A DNA stretch of 5,682 nt from the NCBI RefSeq assembly GCF_003334785.1, contig NZ_QOWV01000042.1. The stretch is one strand, 5' to 3'. The translations under genes were made by a program, and so were the position numbers. The notes below the pieces were generated by a model. That model did no database searches and was not told the origin of the DNA. It saw nothing but the letters and a program-made list of their open reading frames with translations. Position 1 is the stretch's first letter. The number at the start of each line of letters is the position of its first letter. This DNA is from Escherichia coli (GTDB taxonomy: Bacteria; Pseudomonadota; Gammaproteobacteria; Enterobacterales; Enterobacteriaceae). Positions 1 through 5,682 of this stretch are shown here, one piece after another.

Positions 1-73
1 GGTCATCGCCGAAACTGACGGTTTTCAGACTCTTGATCTCATCGTCCAGATAGCGGTTCAGCTCGAGGTGTTC
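1..73. repeat. One unit (missing its first 2 nt) of the 75-bp coding tandem repeat; the array continues beyond the left edge.
   Basis: ggtcatcgccgaaactgacggttttcagactcttgatctcatcgtccagatagcggttcagctcgaggtgttc differs at 2 of 73 positions from 5163..5235. Bases 74..~130 look like a degenerate further unit. Confidence 0.9.
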
Positions 74-229
74 ATAATCTTCACTGACGCTAAAACTCTT
101 AACATTTTGTAGCATCTTATATTCGTACTTCAGCTTCTCTATTAACTCATTACTTAAATCATCAAGAGCATCATGGTCATATTTCGATGACATCAGATGC
201 GATTTTTTAATCATAAATCTGCCATCCAT
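1..229 (-). CDS. Acidic 25-aa tandem-repeat protein, paralogue A. The start codon is inside the window and the 3' end runs off the left edge (76 codons visible).
   Basis: AGGAG at 240..236, a 6-nt spacer, then ATG at 229..227. This lies 13 nt downstream of the stop (245..243) of the PIN-like ORF on the same strand. Hand translation: MDGRFMIKKSHLMSSKYDHDALDDLSNELIEKLKYEYKMLQNVKSFSVSEDYEHLELNRYLDDEIKSLKTVSFGDD..., with no stop before the window edge. Bases 1..73 are one unit of the 75-bp repeat seen at 5101..5640. The ORF is absent from the ORF track, presumably because it is truncated by the edge. Confidence 0.65.
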   Translation of the reverse strand, partial: MDGRFMIKKSHLMSSKYDHDALDDLSNELIEKLKYEYKMLQNVKSFSVSEDYEHLELNRYLDDEIKSLKTVSFGDD

Positions 230-242
230 ATGATACTCCTTC

Positions 243-1493
243 TTACTCTGTTATTGATGAAAGGATTGAGCTCATCTTCTGAATAGAAGATAACTTTCCT
301 TTCATTAGAAGTCTAATTTTAGCCATTATCTCAGGATCTGTCGCAGATTCTAGCTTTTTAGATAGACCAGCAATTTCTGCCTTTTCTCTTTTTATTCTGT
401 TTTCTAGGAGTGCTCGGTGTTCACTGTTGCTTGTGTTACTTCCAGCTCCATACCCATTCCCTGTTGAAATGTTGAGGTTTTCGGTGTTTATTTTAAGATC
501 GAATGCGTTGTTTATATTTAAGATTAGTTCTTTTGTGTTTATTACATCAAAAAATTGAACGCTTGAGTTATTTAGCATTTCCTCTCTTAATATAGCGTGA
601 ACGCCTTTGTTTTCTCTATTTTCTTTATCTCTACCAACTTTAAATATGAAGTCATCTTTTGCATCATTAGTGATTAGGAAAACGTTTTTCGCACCTGTTG
701 ATGCGGCATGCTCTAGAGTTTCTTTCCATATGTAGAAATCACCATAAGCTCTTTGATAAGTAATGCCGTCATAAGAGAATATATTGTCTGGCTTTCCTAC
801 CTTGTCTGCGTCACAGAATCCAGGGGGCGTTTTTAATTCATACCTTGATTTACATTCAGCATCTAATCCATTAATGTATTCTTGGTCCTTTTTTACGCCT
901 ATTTTTCCAGAGAATATGTTGTCAATCCATTCTCTATGTATGTCTTTTGTATTTAACTCATCAATTGATTCATTGAGTTTTCCATACATATCCTCTAGTC
1001 CTGAGTTTAATAAATCAATGGATTTTTTTATTAACTCAGATACTTGTCTGTTTAGCCCTTCGTAATGCCTTGCTTTGGAGTTGTTGCATTTTTCTAATAG
1101 TTTTGATGAATAAGATAATAAATCAACAACAGGAGATGTTGTTGTTGATATCAAGTGTTTCTGATCGTCGATAACCCCTAATCTTCTTCTCTGATACTCC
1201 AACGCAGTAAAATAAGGGAGATATATATTTTCTCTTATCTGTTCTATTGATTTCTTTATCGCAGATATTGTTTCCTGGTTGTTTCTATATAGGTCTAATA
1301 TGACATTGGTGTCAAAAACAAATAATGTATCATCTGCCCTGTATATATCAGGATTGTCCTTTATGTTGCCTGTATAAAATCCTTTAAACATATCCCTCAT
1401 CGACATAAAAAAGCCCCTATTATTCATTTCTGTTTTGTTCTTTTCGTCAGTTGCTGACTCTTGTGTCAACATCAAAATCAATCGATCATGCAA
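243..1493 (-). CDS. PIN-like domain protein (putative metal-dependent nuclease, DUF4935-like pattern) with a C-terminal helical tail.
   Basis: This is the longest ORF in the window (416 codons). Motifs in order are FVFDTNVILDLY (D61), YLPYFTALEYQRRR (E99), PPGFCDADK, YGDFYIWKETLEHA (D252) and VFLITNDAKDDF (D277/D280/D281). These are followed by a low-complexity NISTGNGYGAGSNTSNS stretch and a roughly 55-aa Lys/Glu/Leu-rich tail. The true start is probably internal: ATG at 1406 (M30) has AGGGG at 1418..1414 with a 7-nt spacer, and ATG at 1427 (M23) is an alternative. The 1493 start lies only 9 nt from the RNAII -35 box and upstream of a perfect TTGACA at 1469..1464. Confidence 0.8.
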   Translation of the reverse strand: MHDRLILMLTQESATDEKNKTEMNNRGFFMSMRDMFKGFYTGNIKDNPDIYRADDTLFVFDTNVILDLYRNNQETISAIKKSIEQIRENIYLPYFTALEYQRRRLGVIDDQKHLISTTTSPVVDLLSYSSKLLEKCNNSKARHYEGLNRQVSELIKKSIDLLNSGLEDMYGKLNESIDELNTKDIHREWIDNIFSGKIGVKKDQEYINGLDAECKSRYELKTPPGFCDADKVGKPDNIFSYDGITYQRAYGDFYIWKETLEHAASTGAKNVFLITNDAKDDFIFKVGRDKENRENKGVHAILREEMLNNSSVQFFDVINTKELILNINNAFDLKINTENLNISTGNGYGAGSNTSNSEHRALLENRIKREKAEIAGLSKKLESATDPEIMAKIRLLMKGKLSSIQKMSSILSSITE

Positions 1494-1501
1494 ATGATCT
1501 C

Positions 1502-1530
1502 TTGAGATTCCTTTTTTCTACGCGTAATCT
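1502..1530 (+). promoter_or_regulatory. RNAII (primer) promoter.
   Basis: TTGAGA at 1502..1507, a 17-nt spacer, then TAATCT at 1525..1530. These are the same hexamers and spacing as the pBR322 RNAII promoter (TTGAGA-17-TAATCT). The expected start is near G1539. Confidence 0.7.
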
Positions 1531-1538
1531 TTCTTCCT

Positions 1539-1646
1539 GTAAACGAAAAAACCACCCTGGCAGGTGGTCTTTTCGAAGGTTAGATAATCCTGGCAGATTC
1601 TCTAACCGTGGTAACAGTCTTGTGCGAGACATGTCACCAAATCCGT
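1539..1646 (-). ncRNA. RNAI: RNAI antisense copy-number regulator (about 108 nt).
   Basis: The minus strand starts ACGGATTTGGT (pMB1: ACAGTATTTGGT), 6 nt after the TACACT -10 box. It ends in an ACCACC/GGTGGT hairpin (1551..1568) followed by a T6 run on the minus strand, at the same position as the pMB1 RNAI terminator. It is fully complementary to the RNAII 5' end. Confidence 0.75.
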
Positions 1647-1652
1647 CCTTTC

Positions 1653-1682
1653 AGTGTAGCCTCACTCAGGCCACCACTTCAA
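1653..1682 (-). promoter_or_regulatory. RNAI promoter.
   Basis: On the minus strand: TTGAAG (1682..1677), a 17-nt spacer, then TACACT (1658..1653). These hexamers are identical to the pBR322 RNAI promoter as I recall it. Confidence 0.65.
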
Positions 1683-2299
1683 GAACTCTCGATACATCTC
1701 TCGCACATCCTGTTTACCAGTGGCCGTTGCCAATGGCGATTAGTCGTGTCTTTTCGGGTTGGACTCAAGACGATAGTTACCGGATAAGGCGCAGCGGTCG
1801 GACTGAACGGGGGGTTCGTGCATACAGTCCAGCTTGGAGCGAACTGCCTACCCGGAACTGAGTGTCAGGCGTGGAATGAGAAACCGCGGCCATAACAGCG
1901 GAATGACACCGGTAAACCGAAAGGCAGGAACAGGAGAGCGCACGAGGGAGCCACCAGGGGGAAACGCCTGGTATCTTTATAGTCCTGTCGGGTTTCGCCA
2001 CCTCTGACTTGAGCGTCGATTTTTGTGATGCTCGTCAGGGGGGCGGAGCCTATGGAAAAAGCGCCTGCGGCGCGGCCTTTTTCGGGGTTTCCGTTTTTGC
2101 GCACATGTTCTTTCCCGGGTTATCCCCGGATTCTGTGGATAACTGTGTTACCGTTTTTGTGTGAGTCAGTACCGCTCGCCGCAGCCGAACGACCGAGCGT
2201 AGCGAGTCAGTGAGCGAGGAAGCGGAAGAGCGCCGGAAGCTACATTTTCTCCTTACGCATCTGTGCGGCATTTCACACCCGGCATGGTGCACTTTTCAT

Positions 2300-2400
2300 A
2301 CCATCCGCACTGATGCTGCATGAGTAAGCCAGTATACACTCCGCTATCGCTACGTGACTGGGTCATGGCTGCGCCCCGACACCCGCAAGGTCAACGGCCT
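2300..2400 (-). other. oriT: bom/oriT (basis of mobility) with the ColE1-type nic site.
   Basis: The minus strand reads ...gcgatagcggagtgtatactgg|cttactcatg. The ColE1/pBR322 nic motif CTGG/CTTA falls at 2332..2325, with the nic between 2329 and 2328. The flanking gtgactgggtcatggctgcgccccgacaccc is near-identical to the pBR322 bom region. Confidence 0.75.
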
Positions 2401-2477
2401 GACGCGCCCTGACGGGCTTGTCTGCTCCCGGCATCCGCTCACAGGCAAGCTGTGACCGTCTCCGGGAGCTGTATGTG

Positions 2478-2669
2478 TCAGAGGTTTTCACCGTCATCAC
2501 CGAAACGCGCGAGGCAGCTGCGGTAAAGCTCATCAGCGTGGTCGTGAAGCGATTCACAGATGTCTGCCTGTTCATCCGCGTCCAGTTCGTTGAGTTTCTC
2601 CAGCAGCGTTAATGTCTGGCTTCTGATAAAGCGGGCCATGTTAAGGGCGGTTTTTTCCTGTTTAGTCAC
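2478..2669 (-). CDS. rop: Rop/Rom RNA one modulator (copy-number control).
   Basis: The 63-aa product MTKQEKTALNMARFIRSQTLTLLEKLNELDADEQADICESLHDHADELYRSCLARFGDDGENL matches the pMB1/ColE1 Rop sequence as I remember it. It has a GTG start at 2669..2667 and GGAGG at 2679..2675 with a 5-nt spacer. Confidence 0.95.
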   Translation of the reverse strand: MTKQEKTALNMARFIRSQTLTLLEKLNELDADEQADICESLHDHADELYRSCLARFGDDGENL

Positions 2670-2710
2670 TGATGCCTCCGTGTAAGGGGGGATTTCTGTT
2701 CATGGGGGTA

Positions 2711-3058
2711 ATGATACCGATGAAACGCGAGAGGATGCTCACCATACGGGTTACTGATGATGAACATGCCCGGTTACTGGAACGCTGTGAGGGTAAACAA
2801 CTGGCGGTATGGATGCGGCGGGTCTGCCTGGGTGAGCCGGTTGCCCGTTCCGGGAAGCTGCCGACACTGGCACCGCCGTTACTGCGCCAGCTGGCTGCCA
2901 TCGGGAATAACCTGAATCAGACAGCGAGGAAGGTGAACAGCGGGCAGTGGTCTTCCGGCGACCGGGTTCAGGTGGTGGCCGCACTGATGGCCATCGAGAG
3001 AGAGTTGCGCAGCTTACGGCAGGTCGTCAGGGGACAGGGAGCGCGGGATGATAGTTAA
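2711..3058 (+). CDS. mbeC: MbeC/MobC-type relaxosome accessory protein (ribbon-helix-helix).
   Basis: MLTIRVTDDEHARLLERCEGKQLAVWMRRVCLGEPVARSGKLPTLAPPLLRQLAAIGNNLNQTARKVNSG... is ColE1/pMB1 MbeC, whose 5' part survives in pBR322 next to rop. The ORF is open from 2672. In-frame ATGs occur at 2672, 2702, 2711, 2720 and 2735, so the start is uncertain. I chose 2711 because it gives about 115 aa. The stop TAA at 3056..3058 overlaps the mbeA start. Confidence 0.85.
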   Translation: MIPMKRERMLTIRVTDDEHARLLERCEGKQLAVWMRRVCLGEPVARSGKLPTLAPPLLRQLAAIGNNLNQTARKVNSGQWSSGDRVQVVAALMAIERELRSLRQVVRGQGARDDS

Positions 3059-3425
3059 GTTTCATGCCAGGGGGAAAGGTGGTGGCAGTGGTCCGGTTGA
3101 TTACCTTCTGGGAAGGGAGCGTAACCGGGAAGGTGCAACGGTACTGCAGGGTAACCCGGAAGAAGTCCGGGAACTCATCGATGCCACGCCATTTGCGAAG
3201 AAATATACGTCCGGTGTTCTGTCGTTCGCGGAGAAGGAACTGCCGCCGGGAGGACGTGAAAAAGTTATGGCGAGCTTTGAGCGTGTACTGATGCCCGGTC
3301 TTGAAAAAAATCAGTACAGCATCCTGTGGGTGGAGCACCAGGACAAGGGACGGCTTGAGCTGAATTTTGTCATTCCGAACATGGAGCTACAGAGCGGAAA
3401 ACGCCTCCAGCCGTACTACGACCGG

Positions 3426-3477
3426 GCAGACAGGCCGAGAATTGATGCCTGGCAGACAGGCCGAGAATTGATGCCTG
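3426..3477. repeat. Perfect 2 x 26-bp tandem duplication inside mbeA.
   Basis: gcagacaggccgagaattgatgcctg occurs at 3426..3451 and again at 3452..3477. It is followed by gcagac (3478..3483), so the unit is bounded by 6-bp GCAGAC microhomology. Confidence 0.95.
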
Positions 3478-3761
3478 GCAGACGCTGGTTAATCACCATT
3501 ACGGGCTGCATGACCCCAACGCCCCGGAGAACCGCCGGATACTGACTCTCTCTGATAACCTGCCGGAAACGAAACAGGCGCTTGCAGAGAGCGTCACACG
3601 CGGGATAGACGCTCTTTATCATGTCGGGGAGATAAAAGGCCGTCAGGATGTGATTCAGGCGCTCACAGAGGCAGGGCTTGAAGTGGTCAGGGTGACGCGA
3701 AGCAGTATCAGCATTGCAGACCCGAACGGTGGGAAGAATATCAGGCTGAAAGGAGCATTTT

Positions 3762-4292
3762 ATGAGCAATCTTTTACAGACGGGCGCGGAGTTCGAGAAA
3801 AAGCTGAAAGAGAGAGCCGAATCTACAGAGACAATGCTGAACGACGAGTTCAGGAAGCTCGAAGAATCTGTAAACAGGGAGCTGACCTCAAACGAATCTT
3901 TAATCAGGAACGCTATCAACGACCATACAGCAGCCCTGAAAGAACTTCTGGAGAGGTATCAGAAAACGACCGTCAGCACGATGGACACACACTGGCAAAC
4001 CGTGCTGAAAATGAGCGTGAAACGCTGGCTGTGGCTGATTATCGTCTCAGTACTGATGTTTGCCACGACCGGGAGTCTGCTGTGGTACCAGGGCATGAAG
4101 ATAAACGAGAATATGAATATTCTCCGCGAGCAGAAAGAGAGTCTGGAGAAGCTGAACGCGAAGACATGGGGCGTGCGTTATCACGAGGACAGCAACGGAC
4201 GTTTTCTGGTGTTGCCGAAGGGGATGAAAGCCGAAACGAACTGGACGAAGGACAACGGCAAACTGAACGCAGTGAGACTGGTGCAGGAGTGA
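3762..4292 (+). CDS. mbeB: MbeB mobilisation protein, nested out of frame within mbeA.
   Basis: A 176-aa ORF with AGGAG at 3751..3755 and a 6-nt spacer before the ATG. It has one hydrophobic segment (WLWLIIVSVLMFATTGSLLWY). Its position and size match ColE1 mbeB. Confidence 0.8.
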   Translation: MSNLLQTGAEFEKKLKERAESTETMLNDEFRKLEESVNRELTSNESLIRNAINDHTAALKELLERYQKTTVSTMDTHWQTVLKMSVKRWLWLIIVSVLMFATTGSLLWYQGMKINENMNILREQKESLEKLNAKTWGVRYHEDSNGRFLVLPKGMKAETNWTKDNGKLNAVRLVQE

Positions 4293-4298
4293 CAGAGC

Positions 4299-4532
4299 AT
4301 GACGGAGCTGGAAAGACATTTGCTGAACGCCTTAGAGCAACTGCAACAGGACTATATGCAGCGGCTGAACGAATGGGAGAGCGCCTTCGTGGAATTGCAG
4401 AAAATGTTTTCGCTTACGCAACGGGACAACGCGATGCTGAACGAGCGGGTCATGCAGTTGAGTCAGCAGGTGCAGCACTTGAGCGAGCGGACAGAACGCT
4501 TGAGCCAGTTATACAGCGAGAACAGGAGATAA
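4299..4532 (+). CDS. mbeD: MbeD mobilisation/entry-exclusion-associated protein, nested within mbeA.
   Basis: A 77-aa ORF starting 7 nt after mbeB, with AGGAG at 4285..4289. It is helical and heptad-rich (LLNALEQLQQDYMQRLNEWESAFVELQ). Its position matches ColE1 mbeD. Confidence 0.8.
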   Translation: MTELERHLLNALEQLQQDYMQRLNEWESAFVELQKMFSLTQRDNAMLNERVMQLSQQVQHLSERTERLSQLYSENRR

Positions 4533-4562
4533 GGGACGAACGGCTGATACAGGAGCGCGAAC

Positions 4563-4760
4563 ATGCGTTATCCCTGGAGCGTGAGCGCCAGCCGGAAATA
4601 CAGGAACGCACACTGGATGGCCCTTCGCTGGGATGGTAATCAGAGACAGGCTAAAATGTTGTCAGCGCGTTTCCGGTGCATTTTTTGGGATAATGGTTGG
4701 TTCGGGGGCACCGGGAACGCGCTTCAGTCAGACCTTGCTGAAAACACAGGAACGCGTTAA
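4563..4760 (+). CDS. Small Trp/Arg-rich ORF overlapping the mbeA 3' end (possible mbeE-like ORF; not recognised).
   Basis: AGGAG at 4551..4555 with a 7-nt spacer before ATG 4563 is a good ribosome-binding site. The 65-aa product has no motif I recognise. ColE1 is described as having a fifth small mbe ORF, but I cannot verify correspondence. Confidence 0.25.
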   Translation: MRYPWSVSASRKYRNAHWMALRWDGNQRQAKMLSARFRCIFWDNGWFGGTGNALQSDLAENTGTR

Positions 4761-4849
4761 AACGCATACGGGCGCGATTCTGGTGTATCTTTTGTTGCTG
4801 TGTTTTGCCGTTATTGCCAGATCGCGCTCATTCCCCTGAATTTCTGTTT

Positions 4850-5086
4850 TTCCGCTCCGGTTCCGTCTTCTGCCTTTCCGAAAGTATGAAAAAAATCCGT
4901 TTCAGCAGTCTCTGGCTGGAAATTCCTGCGTGATTCACATGGCTGCATAGCTATGCATGTGGTTAAAATTTACCGGGTGCGATCGCGGCAGTTTTTCGGG
5001 TGGTTTGTTGCCATTTTTACCTGTCTGCTGCCGTGATCGCACCGAACGCGTTTCAGTGGTGCGTACAATGGGATGTTATGGTAAAT
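4850..5086 (+). other. cer: cer-type multimer resolution site (accessory sequences plus XerC/XerD core).
   Basis: The core at 5058..5086 is GGTGCGTACAA-tgggatg-TTATGGTAAAT. Both 11-bp arms are identical to ColE1 cer as I recall it. A 14-bp perfect palindrome TGCATAGCTATGCA (4944..4957) lies about 100 bp upstream, where the cer ArgR box sits. The left boundary is approximate. Confidence 0.75.
4975..5060 (+). ncRNA. rcd: Possible Rcd-like checkpoint RNA encoded inside cer.
   Basis: A -10-like TAAAAT lies at 4964..4969. A long stem pairs gcgatcgcggcag (4979..4991) with ctgccgtgatcgc (5028..5040), 12 Watson-Crick pairs plus one G-U. The segment resembles the ColE1 cer/Rcd region from memory. Direction and ends are not established from this sequence. 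Confidence 0.3.
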
Positions 5087-5100
5087 GGCTCTCGCTAGTT

Positions 5101-5640
5101 TCATTTAATTTTTAAATTACGAAGCTCATTATCCAGATAGCGATTCAGCTCGAGGAGCTCGTGGTCATCGCCGAAACTGACGGTTTTCAGGCTCTTGATC
5201 TCATCGTCCAGATAGCGGTTCAGCTCGAGGAGTTCGTGGTCATCGCCGAAACTGACGGTTTTCAGACTCATGATCTCATCGTCCAGATAGCGGTTCAGTT
5301 CCCGGAGTTCGTGGTCATTGCCGAAACTGACGGTTTTCAGGCTCTTGATCTCATCGTCCAGATAGCGGTTCAGTTTCCGGAGCTCGTGGTCATCGCCGAA
5401 ACTGACGGTTTTCAGACTCATGATCTCATCGTCCAGATAGCGGTTCAGCTCGAGGAGCTCGTGGTCATCGCCGAAACTGACGGTTTTCAGGCTCATGATC
5501 TCATCGTCCAGATAGCGGTTCAGTTTCCGGAGCTCGAGGTCATCGCCGAAATTGACGGTTTTCAGACTCATGATCTCATCGTCCAGATAGCGGTTCAGAT
5601 AGAGGAGATCATAGTCATCGCAGACGCTAACAGTATTAAC
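5101..5640. repeat. 75-bp tandem repeat array: six near-perfect units at 5161, 5236, 5311, 5386, 5461 and 5536, plus degenerate flanking units.
   Basis: The period was verified by coordinates: gtggtcatcgcc recurs at 5161, 5236, 5386 and 5461, with the one-mismatch variant gtggtcattgcc at 5311. Units differ at only a few positions each. The variants are combinations of cagactcatgatc versus caggctcttgatc, and cagctcgaggag versus cagtt(t/c)ccggag. Confidence 0.95.
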
Positions 5641-5652
5641 AATATTTATCAA
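5101..5652 (-). CDS. Acidic 25-aa tandem-repeat protein, paralogue B (repeat domain and C-terminus). The homologous N-terminal region continues upstream past an in-frame TAG and off the right edge.
   Basis: The ORF contains seven repeat units of consensus LNRYLDDEI(M/K)SLKTVSFGDDHEL(LE/RK) and ends ...LNRYLDNELRNLKIK, with TGA at 5103..5101. The track start at 5652 is a TTG directly after TAG 5655..5653. No SD precedes it, so it is probably not a real start. It may be a disrupted gene, so pseudogene status is possible. Confidence 0.55.
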   Translation of the reverse strand: MINIVNTVSVCDDYDLLYLNRYLDDEIMSLKTVNFGDDLELRKLNRYLDDEIMSLKTVSFGDDHELLELNRYLDDEIMSLKTVSFGDDHELRKLNRYLDDEIKSLKTVSFGNDHELRELNRYLDDEIMSLKTVSFGDDHELLELNRYLDDEIKSLKTVSFGDDHELLELNRYLDNELRNLKIK

Positions 5653-5682
5653 CTAGTAATCGTACATCATCAGCTCAATTAA

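What the first reader, a model, noticed from the sequence alone, without database searches (positions are those of the whole stretch)
1..1493. PIN-like nuclease plus acidic repeat-protein operon in the colicin slot of a ColE1-type plasmid: candidate undescribed defence/toxin/anti-defence module
Seen in sequence: the whole interval between the cer core (ends 5086, continuing across the window edges) and the RNAII promoter (1502) is filled by co-directional minus-strand genes. Gene 1 carries the ordered acidic motifs of a PIN-fold nuclease: FDTNV D61, ALEY E99, GDFYIWKE D252 and ITNDAKDD D277/280/281. It also carries PPGFCDADK, a pattern I associate with the PIN-like/DUF4935 family. Gene 2 starts 13 nt after its stop, with AGGAG plus ATG, implying one operon. 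It encodes a short unique N-terminus followed by acidic 25-aa repeats. A paralogue of gene 2 lies further along the same strand. Established knowledge: ColE1-family plasmids keep their accessory cargo (colicin/immunity/lysis) in this slot, and PIN-fold nucleases are effectors of toxin-antitoxin and antiphage systems. Inference: this is a two-component module in which the repeat protein acts as sensor, inhibitor/antitoxin or nucleic-acid mimic for the nuclease. I do not know of a described system with this pairing, and I cannot search.
Basis: partly seen in the sequence, partly recalled or inferred. Interest (0 to 1): 0.8.

Follow-up and report, generated by a model that had tools for sequence, protein, structure and literature searches.

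The report
Plasmid PIN nuclease with repeat-protein partner
The cargo of this small ColE1-type E. coli plasmid is a conserved two-gene operon, a PIN_8-family nuclease followed by a fast-evolving acidic tandem-repeat protein; no described system matches the pair, it looks like a split form of single proteins that carry both parts, and its function (probably a regulated toxin or defence nuclease) is still untested.

Summary

The "paralogue" is mostly wrong. The window matches ECOR10 plasmid pIII at 99.85-100%, and there one 346-aa gene spans both pieces. Only the last 61-84 nt of the window are an unexplained diverged copy of gene-2 codons 29-55 with an in-frame stop.

The pairing is real. All 8 PIN clusters of this plasmid clade (56-100% identity, ColE1 and Rep3 backbones) have a repeat gene 12-14 nt downstream. 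None of 80 distant homologues does, but 20 of 131 family members carry fused C-terminal tandem repeats, including two other small plasmids.

Neither protein hit PADLOC-DB or NCBIfam, and I found no paper on PIN_8 function.

My best reading is a split nuclease-plus-regulator module of the toxin/abortive-defence kind. That function is inferred, not shown. I rate it a new variant of a known kind, of moderate interest.

The parts
243..1403 (-). PIN_8-family nuclease gene (386 aa from ATG 1403; stop TAA 245-243). The open frame extends to TTG 1493, but those 30 codons are probably not translated.
230..242 (-). 13-nt intergenic spacer; the AGGAG Shine-Dalgarno sequence (240-236) lies within it
   Evidence: Read directly from the sequence. 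The spacing is 12-14 nt in all 8 related clusters.
1..229 (-). 5' part of gene 2: 56-aa non-repeat N-terminus plus the first 25-aa unit, cut by the window edge
   Evidence: Identical to L001 4371-4599, where the ORF continues for 346 aa. The N-terminal motif M-[ND]-[DE]-x-S-F-L-x-x-K is shared by orthologues.
5101..5621 (-). 3' part of the same gene 2: 6.6 repeat units of 75 bp, a basic C-terminus and stop TGA 5103-5101
   Evidence: TRF finds period 75, 6.6 copies and 91% matches. This stretch lies within the window 1543-5621 = L001 1-4079 block, which is 99.85% identical. In the shared motif, E. coli and L106 differ by 6 synonymous and 3 nonsynonymous changes over 12 codons.
5622..5682 (-). 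Anomalous AT-rich segment at the window edge. It belongs to 5599-5682, a diverged copy of gene-2 codons 29-55 with an in-frame TAG. It may be a remnant, a second allele or an assembly junction.
   Evidence: Gapless 81-nt alignment at about 68% identity. It is absent from related loci and from the viral and metagenome collections.
5058..5086 (+). cer-like Xer recombination core, bounding the cargo region 14 nt from the gene-2 stop
   Evidence: Exact match to GGTGCGTACAA-N8-TATGGTAAAT, with 0 matches expected by chance.
1543..1645 (-). RNAI of the ColE1 replicon. It lies directly upstream of the PIN gene and in the same direction; the RNAII promoter diverges from about 1502.
   Evidence: Rfam RF00106, 76.5 bits; sequence.

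Best explanation
The cargo is a two-gene operon.

Gene 1 encodes a PIN_8-family metal-dependent endonuclease. It has a PIN core, a long helical hairpin inserted after the second strand, and a C-terminal helical hairpin.

Gene 2 is probably translationally coupled to gene 1. It encodes a cytoplasmic, acidic protein with a short conserved N-terminus followed by an expandable array of 25-29-aa units.

I read the pair as the split form of an architecture that other PIN_8 proteins have in one chain: a PIN_8 domain followed by C-terminal tandem repeats.

Proposed mechanism (inferred): the repeat protein binds the nuclease and holds it inactive or directs it. When the partner is lost, titrated or bound by a trigger such as a phage or foreign-element product, the nuclease is freed and cuts RNA (or DNA). 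The result is growth arrest or abortive infection. On a small plasmid this serves as defence and, as a side effect, as addiction.

Shown here: PIN_8 membership, an intact active-site signature, protein-coding repeats, strict pairing within the clade, the existence of fused relatives, and rapid partner evolution.

Inferred only: physical binding, inhibition, the trigger, the substrate and any phenotype.
For: - Gene 2 follows at 12-14 nt in 8 of 8 PIN clusters of the clade, at 56-100% PIN identity, on ColE1 and Rep3 backbones.
- Gene 2 codes for protein. Unit periods are multiples of 3 (25, 26 and 28-29 aa). Only its own frame is open across the L006 array. The shared motif shows 6 synonymous against 3 nonsynonymous changes. 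The RNA is not structured (z +1.77).
- Fused PIN_8 plus tandem repeats occur in 20 of 131 family members. These include K. pneumoniae pC51_006 (17-aa units, about 9 copies) and Psychrobacter pA48P2 (units of about 20-21 aa, about 3 copies). Many family members end in an acidic tail.
- The partner evolves much faster than the nuclease. PIN identity is 57% between the window and L006, while the two partners are not significantly alike by BLASTP (E 0.7).
- The wider family has no fixed neighbour. Its neighbours include integrases, resolvases and defence genes (TIR, NACHT, LmuA, PtuB, HEC-06, PD-Lambda-5_B, an RM-like pair).
- The PIN protein matches PHROG 9788 (function unknown) over its full length.
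- ColE1 variable regions are known to carry TA, RM and Abi cargo (PMC5864857).
- The exact PIN protein is listed in 155 blocks of the assembly collection.
Against: - There are no functional data of any kind.
- Neither protein matched any PADLOC-DB model.
- A profile built from the fused repeats does not detect the plasmid repeat proteins. The fusion/fission link therefore rests on architecture, not on proven homology.
- 80 of 80 distant homologues lack a separate repeat gene, and most lack repeats altogether. The repeat partner is therefore not a general requirement of PIN_8.
- Defence genes among the neighbours are a minority, and I did not test enrichment against a background.
- The partner is only moderately acidic.
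- If the window is a closed circle, gene 2 is broken while the PIN gene is intact. That would argue against an essential inhibitor.
Confidence: 0.45

Rival explanations
1. Plain plasmid-addiction toxin/inhibitor pair. The PIN nuclease is a stable toxin and the acidic repeat protein is its stoichiometric, less stable inhibitor, in the manner of barstar, colicin immunity proteins or ribonuclease inhibitor. Plasmid-free segregants are killed, and there is no role in phage defence.
For: - It is the sole cargo of small plasmids on several backbones.
- Toxin-then-inhibitor gene order with tight coupling.
- An acidic partner.
- PIN toxins are the commonest type II toxins (own knowledge; VapC-group assignment in PMC5499597).
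Against: - High-copy ColE1 plasmids with cer gain little from post-segregational killing.
- Fused single-chain relatives cannot work through differential stability.
- The nuclease is 386 aa, not about 140 aa.
- Pfam found no DNA-binding domain in the partner.
- Most family members are solitary chromosomal genes.
Confidence: 0.2
2. The module is not a conflict system. The PIN_8 protein is a regulated RNA-processing or repair nuclease, and the repeat protein is a scaffold or adaptor that confers an unknown benefit on the host or plasmid.
For: - Many distant homologues sit next to housekeeping genes.
- Matelska et al. list PIN_8 as function unknown.
Against: - Patchy distribution, AT-rich foreign composition and carriage on mobile plasmids.
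- Presence in phage protein families.
- A hypervariable partner.
- Mobile-element and defence genes among the neighbours.
Confidence: 0.12
3. Gene 2 is an independent DNA-mimic or anti-restriction (anti-defence) protein of the ArdA/Ocr kind that helps the plasmid establish itself. It is merely co-transcribed with an unrelated nuclease.
For: It is acidic, with periodic charge and no recognisable domain.
Against: - Strict co-occurrence with the PIN gene, and only with this PIN clade. An exhaustive phmmer search of 1.84 billion representatives found only fragments of gene 2 itself.
- Repeats are fused to PIN_8 in relatives.
- Its charge density is well below that of known mimics.
Confidence: 0.07
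4. The tandem array acts as RNA. It would be a type III (ToxIN-like) repeat antitoxin RNA that neutralises the endonuclease, and the open frame would be incidental.
For: A tandem DNA repeat lies next to an endonuclease gene on a plasmid. A second, antisense frame is also open across the E. coli array.
Against: - The array lies downstream of the nuclease gene, not upstream.
- It is preceded by a conserved start codon, Shine-Dalgarno sequence and non-repeat N-terminal peptide.
- Unit lengths are multiples of 3 in all orthologues.
- Conservation is at the amino-acid level, with synonymous changes.
- Only one frame is open across the L006 array.
- The RNA fold is no better than shuffled sequence (z +1.77).
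- Repeats are translated as part of the PIN protein in fused relatives.
Confidence: 0.03
5. It is a bacteriocin-like nuclease toxin with its immunity protein, occupying the colicin position of the plasmid.
For: Position in the ColE1 cargo region, toxin-then-acidic-partner order, and long helical hairpins in the nuclease.
Against: - The nuclease domain is N-terminal.
- There is no room for a lysis gene, because the two genes fill the interval.
- I saw no LexA-box-like sequence upstream by eye.
- Relatives are widespread solitary chromosomal genes in many phyla.
Confidence: 0.03

Closest known systems
[quoted passage not shown] 2017, PMC5499597)
   Same: Gene 1 is a clear member. It has a full-length profile match and the conserved acidic residues, and like DUF4935 as described in that paper it carries a long helical insert after strand 2.
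   Different: The family has no assigned function, and the related DUF4935 is described as mostly monocistronic. Here a clade of PIN_8 is strictly paired with a separate tandem-repeat protein gene.
Single-chain PIN_8 proteins with C-terminal tandem repeats (e.g. K. pneumoniae pC51_006 WP_151676002.1, Psychrobacter pA48P2 WP_181717440.1, Shewanella/Marinimicrobium proteins P0035/P0025)
   Same: An N-terminal PIN_8 domain followed by a charged tandem-repeat array. Some are likewise carried on small plasmids of 4-6 kb.
   Different: The repeats are fused, shorter (about 17-21 aa) and followed by an acidic tail. The window has them in a second gene, with 25-aa units and a basic tail. Sequence homology between the two kinds of repeat was not detectable.
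VapBC type II toxin-antitoxin systems
   Different: VapC is about 130-150 aa, and VapB lies upstream and has a DNA-binding domain. Here the nuclease is 386 aa with helical inserts, and the partner lies downstream, is repetitive and has no DNA-binding domain detected by Pfam.
Nuclease-inhibitor pairs: ribonuclease inhibitor (an acidic LRR protein) with RNase A, barnase-barstar, colicin E nucleases with Im proteins (own knowledge)
   Same: An acidic partner encoded after, or acting on, a nuclease. The E. coli repeat unit resembles BspA-type LRR units, and 31 of 42 scanned distant hits are LRR_5 proteins.
   Different: No homology. The LRR resemblance is absent in orthologous partners and does not reach Pfam thresholds. 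Inhibition is untested.
Fused or split toxin-sensor defence proteins such as CapRel(SJ46) (own knowledge)
   Same: The same logic: an effector domain held in check by a C-terminal domain, or a separate protein, that may sense an invader.
   Different: Unrelated folds, and no trigger is known here.
ToxIN type III toxin-antitoxin/abortive infection system
   Same: A plasmid-borne endonuclease next to a tandem repeat array.
   Different: The ToxI repeats are non-coding RNA upstream of toxN. Here the repeats lie downstream and are protein-coding and unstructured as RNA.

Membership tests
PIN_8 (PF18476), PIN domain-like superfamily | Profile match above Pfam's gathering score | tested here: met
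   143.3 bits against a cut-off of 26.1, E 1.4e-41, residues 57-288 of the 416-aa ORF.
PIN_8 (PF18476), PIN domain-like superfamily | Four to five conserved acidic residues in PIN order (after strand 1, in helix 3, after strand 3, after strand 4) | tested here: met
   D31, E69, D222 and D251 are invariant and D247 nearly so in 35 sequences. Their places relative to the model's strands fit PIN topology. I could not check 3D clustering because no coordinates were available.
PIN_8 (PF18476), PIN domain-like superfamily | PIN fold | tested here: met
PIN_8 (PF18476), PIN domain-like superfamily | Nuclease activity | not testable with these tools
   Needs biochemistry.
VapBC-type type II toxin-antitoxin | Small single-domain PIN toxin with an upstream antitoxin that carries a DNA-binding domain | tested here: not met
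   The nuclease is 386 aa with inserts. The partner lies downstream. No DNA-binding family was detected in it.
VapBC-type type II toxin-antitoxin | Toxicity neutralised by the partner | not testable with these tools
   Needs expression experiments.
Known or candidate anti-phage systems (PADLOC-DB 2.0.0) | Match to a system protein model | tested here: not met
   No family for the PIN protein at E up to 1. The repeat pieces gave only chance-level hits. DefenseFinder was not available.
Type III toxin-antitoxin (ToxIN-like) | Non-coding, structured repeat RNA upstream of the endonuclease gene | tested here: not met
   The array lies downstream, codes for protein and is unstructured as RNA (z +1.77).
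Leucine-rich repeat proteins (BspA-type LRR_5) | Profile match to an LRR family, or a confident alpha/beta-solenoid model | tested here: inconclusive
   - No Pfam LRR family at E below 0.3.
- The AF2 single-sequence model has pLDDT 55, with one strand and one helix per unit.
- 31 of 42 scanned phmmer hits are LRR_5 proteins, with in-register unit alignment.
- Orthologous partners show no such similarity.
ColE1-type replicon | RNAI/RNAII antisense control, with Rop, Mbe mobilisation genes and a cer site | tested here: met
   RNAI RF00106 at 76.5 bits. Rop, MobC, MbeB and MbeD are annotated in the near-identical L001. The cer core is at 5058-5086.
Colicin operon | C-terminal cytotoxic domain, immunity gene, lysis gene and SOS box | tested here: not met
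   The nuclease domain is N-terminal. Two genes fill the interval, leaving no room for a lysis gene. I looked for a LexA box only by eye.

The most novel reading that the evidence does not exclude
PIN_8 nucleases with expandable tandem-repeat modules, either fused or encoded as a separate partner as here, form an undescribed family of mobile-element-borne immune or abortive-infection effectors. In this reading the rapidly diversifying, possibly LRR-like repeat array is the sensor or inhibitor, and its unit sequence and copy number set what releases the nuclease.
Probability: 0.25. Interest if true: 0.75.

Novelty: new variant of a known kind. Interest (0 to 1): 0.55.

Why it matters
PIN_8 is a large family with no known function. 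This plasmid clade offers a compact, naturally isolated two-gene version that is common in E. coli: the exact protein is listed in 155 blocks of public assemblies, and it is present in reference strain ECOR 10. It would be easy to test.

The link between split and fused forms gives a concrete hypothesis for what the variable C-termini of the family do. If the partner proves to be a sensor or inhibitor built from fast-evolving repeats, it would add a new effector-regulator design to bacterial conflict systems. It would also explain why otherwise cryptic small plasmids persist.

If the module is only an addiction system, the finding is a modest extension of PIN toxin biology.

Tried and rejected
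- **Word-indexed protein search** with the 346-aa partner returned nothing. The exhaustive phmmer search found only fragments of gene 2 itself plus LRR_5 and low-complexity proteins.
- **Profile of the fused 18-aa repeats** against the plasmid partners gave no significant match. I therefore dropped the claim that the two kinds of repeat are homologous and kept only the architectural parallel.
- **Foldseek against PDB** with the whole PIN model gave helix-dominated noise. A profile search of PDB sequences was empty. phmmer of the partner against PDB hit only de novo designed helical repeat proteins, which I read as composition and periodicity artefacts.
- **Structure of the partner**: The 183-aa window piece folded at pLDDT 55, too low for a fold search.
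- **LRR idea**: attractive for the E. coli allele, but orthologues do not reproduce it. I kept it as a possibility only.
- **Origin of the odd 61-84 nt at the window edge**: no match in 24 related loci, IMG/VR or JGI metagenomes. Unresolved.
- **Literature**: nothing on PIN_8 function or on this pairing.
- **Promoter scan**: no sigma-70-like site upstream of the PIN gene. Read-through from RNAI is only a thought.
- **Type III TA and colicin readings**: rejected for the reasons given under the rival explanations.
Full report
**What is in the window**

The window is a ColE1-type replicon. Rfam finds RNAI at 1543-1645 on the minus strand. A cer-like Xer core lies at 5058-5086. In the near-identical E. 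coli ECOR 10 plasmid RCS83_pIII (L001, 5912 bp, circular) the rest is annotated as Rop, MobC, relaxase, MbeB and MbeD. The backbone is 48-61% GC, while positions 1-1500 are 32-37% GC. This matches the published split of enterobacterial ColE1 plasmids into a conserved region and a variable cargo region of lower, variable GC that carries toxin-antitoxin, restriction-modification, abortive-infection or bacteriocin genes (PMC5864857).

**Gene 1**

- ORF 243-1493(-) matches Pfam PIN_8 (PF18476) at E 1.4e-41 and PIN_12 (the former DUF4935) at 5.7e-8.
D31, E69, D222 and D251 are invariant and D247 nearly so. In the PPGF..D..K signature, P194, G195 and K201 are invariant, and P193 and D198 are nearly so.
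- An AlphaFold2 model (pLDDT 82) shows a strand-helix core interrupted by a long helical hairpin (residues 64-152). A disordered Gly/Ser/Asn linker and a C-terminal helical hairpin follow.
- Homologues begin at MSMRDMFKGFY. The 30 codons upstream differ from their counterpart in a relative that is 88% identical by 1 synonymous and 9 nonsynonymous changes. The gene body differs by 75 synonymous and 45 nonsynonymous changes. The real start is therefore most likely ATG 1403, giving 386 aa.
- Matelska et al. 2017 defined PIN_8 within the VapC-like group and list it as 'function unknown' (PMC5499597).
- The protein hit no PADLOC-DB or NCBIfam model. It matches PHROG 9788 (function unknown) over its full length.

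**Gene 2 and the supposed paralogue**

The window equals L001 4371..5912 joined to 1..4079, at 100% and 99.85% identity. In L001, and in five other complete contigs that carry the identical PIN protein, a single ORF of 346 aa (371 aa in one contig) runs from that ATG to a stop 14 nt before the cer core. It consists of a 56-aa N-terminus followed by about 11 units of 25 aa. The minus-strand ORF at 5101-5652 is therefore the 3' end of gene 2, not a paralogue.

One thing is left over. Window 5599-5682 is a gapless copy, about 68% identical, of gene-2 codons 29-55. Its substitutions are conservative and it carries an in-frame TAG. I found it in no related locus, nor in the IMG/VR or JGI metagenome collections. 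There are two readings:

- If the record is a closed circle, gene 2 is broken after 78 codons while the PIN gene is intact.
- If it is a linear contig, a second diverged copy or allele lies beyond the edge.

I could not decide between them.

**Is gene 2 a real gene?**

Yes, for several reasons:

- Only its own frame is open across the array of the diverged orthologue L006.
- Unit lengths are multiples of three in every orthologue (25, 26 and 28-29 aa).
- The motif L[NS]R[YT]LDDEI[KR]SL is kept between two orthologues through 6 synonymous and 3 nonsynonymous codon changes.
- Two units folded as RNA are less stable than shuffled sequence (z +1.77).

This removes a ToxIN-like RNA reading. The protein has pI 4.7 (84 D+E, 52 K+R), and its N-terminus as read shows no obvious signal-peptide-like hydrophobic stretch; no predictor was run. 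Unit-to-unit variation is concentrated at positions 7, 10, 21, 24 and 25. Oddly, the array is 52.8% GC, whereas the PIN gene and the gene-2 N-terminus are 33.9% GC.

**Is the pairing conserved?**

The protein search found a tight clade, P0001-P0009, at 56-92% identity. There is then a gap down to about 33%.

I examined eight clusters of that clade: the window type plus P0002, P0003, P0004, P0006, P0007, P0008 and P0009. Every one has a gene starting 12-14 nt after the PIN stop. Each has an N-terminus of the form M-[ND]-[DE]-x-S-F-L-x-x-K, and acidic repeats follow wherever the contig extends far enough to show them. The backbones are ColE1 and Rep3.

The partner evolves far faster than the nuclease. 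PIN identity is 57% between the window and L006, yet the two partners are not significantly alike by BLASTP (E 0.7).

An exhaustive phmmer search of 1.84 billion representative proteins found only fragments of gene 2 itself as true relatives. The partner family therefore seems confined to this module.

**The wider family**

- A scan of reference genomes gave at least 518 relatives. The 80 I kept are 25-34% identical and come from many phyla.
- None of the 80 has a downstream repeat gene. Most are solitary genes with a variable C-terminal region, typically about 100-200 aa.
- Their immediate neighbours share no conserved partner: 130 Pfam families were found among 147 neighbours. The most frequent are integrases (4) and resolvases (3), with TIR, NACHT and HNH at 2 each. 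Single PADLOC hits include LmuA, PtuB, HEC-06, PD-Lambda-5_B and methyltransferases.
- One homologue sits between type III restriction-like genes and an AAA ATPase.
- This context suggests variable islands. I did not test enrichment against a background.

**The key new observation**

Of 131 family members, 20 carry a statistically clear tandem repeat fused to the C-terminus, mostly with a period of 17-21 aa (z above 6 against shuffles). Many family members end in an acidic tail.

Two of these fused proteins are the cargo of other small plasmids:

- K. pneumoniae pC51_006: a ColE1-type plasmid of 5240 bp encoding a 574-aa protein with about nine copies of the unit SLRDREEAMRRAGISMD.
- Psychrobacter pA48P2: a 4204-bp plasmid encoding a 415-aa protein with about three units of roughly 20-21 aa, ending in NLDNLDNLDDE.

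The E. coli operon therefore looks like the split form of a recurrent 'PIN_8 plus tandem repeats' architecture. The caution is that a profile built from the fused repeats does not detect the plasmid partners. The parallel is architectural, and homology between the repeats is not shown.

**What fold is the partner?**

This is not settled.

- For an LRR-like fold: the single-sequence AlphaFold model is weak (pLDDT 55) but shows one short strand and one helix per unit. Among the non-self phmmer hits, 31 of the 42 I scanned are BspA-type LRR_5 proteins. BLASTP aligns SLKTVSFGDDHELRKLNRYLDDEIK in register with SLTTVTFGDNSQLTSIGNYAFEDCD.
- Against: Pfam LRR models do not reach significance, and the orthologous partners from L006 and P0061 show no such similarity.

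An LRR-like solenoid is a possibility, not a finding.

**Interpretation**

The best-supported reading is a two-component nuclease module in which the repeat protein associates with the PIN_8 enzyme and regulates it. By analogy with other nuclease-plus-partner and fused toxin-sensor systems, the module would act in conflict: abortive defence, and incidentally plasmid addiction.

- Shown: PIN_8 membership, an intact active-site signature, a coding and rapidly evolving partner, strict pairing within the clade, and the existence of fused relatives.
- Inferred: binding, inhibition, the trigger, the substrate and any phenotype.

Pure addiction, a non-conflict role, an independent DNA-mimic partner, an RNA antitoxin and a bacteriocin are ranked below this, for the reasons given under the rival explanations.

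**Novelty and score**

Neither protein matched any PADLOC-DB 2.0.0 or NCBIfam model, Pfam recognises only the PIN_8 domain of gene 1, and none of my literature searches turned up the pair.

The kind of system, a PIN nuclease with a protein partner on a mobile element, is familiar. The tandem-repeat partner and the relation between split and fused forms are not. I therefore rate it a new variant of a known kind, with moderate interest (0.55). The module is common, compact and directly testable, but nothing yet shows what it does.

Noticed in passing
window 3425-3483: A perfect 26-bp tandem duplication (2.3 copies) lies inside the mbeA relaxase gene and splits it into ORFs 3048-3545 and 3650-4639. 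L001 and L020 have the same duplication. L015, L019 and L021-L023 have one copy, and L019 encodes an intact 521-aa relaxase. This plasmid lineage probably has a frameshifted relaxase.
   Followed up: partly
window 5599-5682 (minus strand): An AT-rich, gapless copy of gene-2 codons 29-55, about 68% identical, with an in-frame TAG. It is absent from all related plasmids and from the collections I searched. It is either a remnant or second allele, or an assembly junction. If the record is circular, gene 2 is broken while the PIN gene is intact.
   Followed up: partly
window 5101-5621 versus 1-1403: The repeat array is 52.8% GC, while the PIN gene and the non-repeat N-terminus of gene 2 are 33.9% GC. 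This is a sharp compositional step inside one gene, and I have no explanation for it.
   Followed up: no
window 5161-5682 (+): A 173-aa antisense ORF runs across the repeat array. The equivalent antisense frame is not open in the diverged L006 array, so it is most likely a by-product of the repeats.
   Followed up: partly
L107 (K. pneumoniae pC51_006) 2489-3151 and L109 (Rahnella pHW114B): In these ColE1-like plasmids the fused PIN_8-repeat gene is preceded by two small genes. The 220-aa one gives sub-threshold hits to Abi_2 and a HEPN family (23.6 bits against a cut-off of 25.6). This hints at an abortive-infection context.
   Followed up: partly
L110 1483-4595: A Rep3 plasmid contig carries the PIN/repeat module next to a T6SS Tle1-like lipase gene and a DUF3304 gene, a second piece of conflict-type cargo.
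   Followed up: no
L010 467-7565: A PIN_8 homologue (33% identity) lies directly after an N6/N4 methyltransferase gene and a ResIII helicase gene (type III restriction-like). A 421-aa P-loop ATPase gene follows it. This would be a different possible partner set for the same nuclease family.
   Followed up: partly
L019 1713-2828; P0052: The partner varies in copy number: 346 aa in most complete contigs and 371 aa in L019. A 96-aa form with 1.6 units exists as a cluster representative, and may be an assembly collapse.
   Followed up: no
window 1404-1542 (minus strand): The PIN gene lies directly downstream of RNAI in the same direction, and the consensus scan finds no sigma-70-like promoter between them. 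Read-through from the RNAI promoter might contribute to expression of the operon.
   Followed up: no
phage record MW478289.1 39414-40094: Clostridium phage phiCp-A encodes a distant PIN_8-like protein (26% identity over 65% of the query) near one end of its genome.
   Followed up: no
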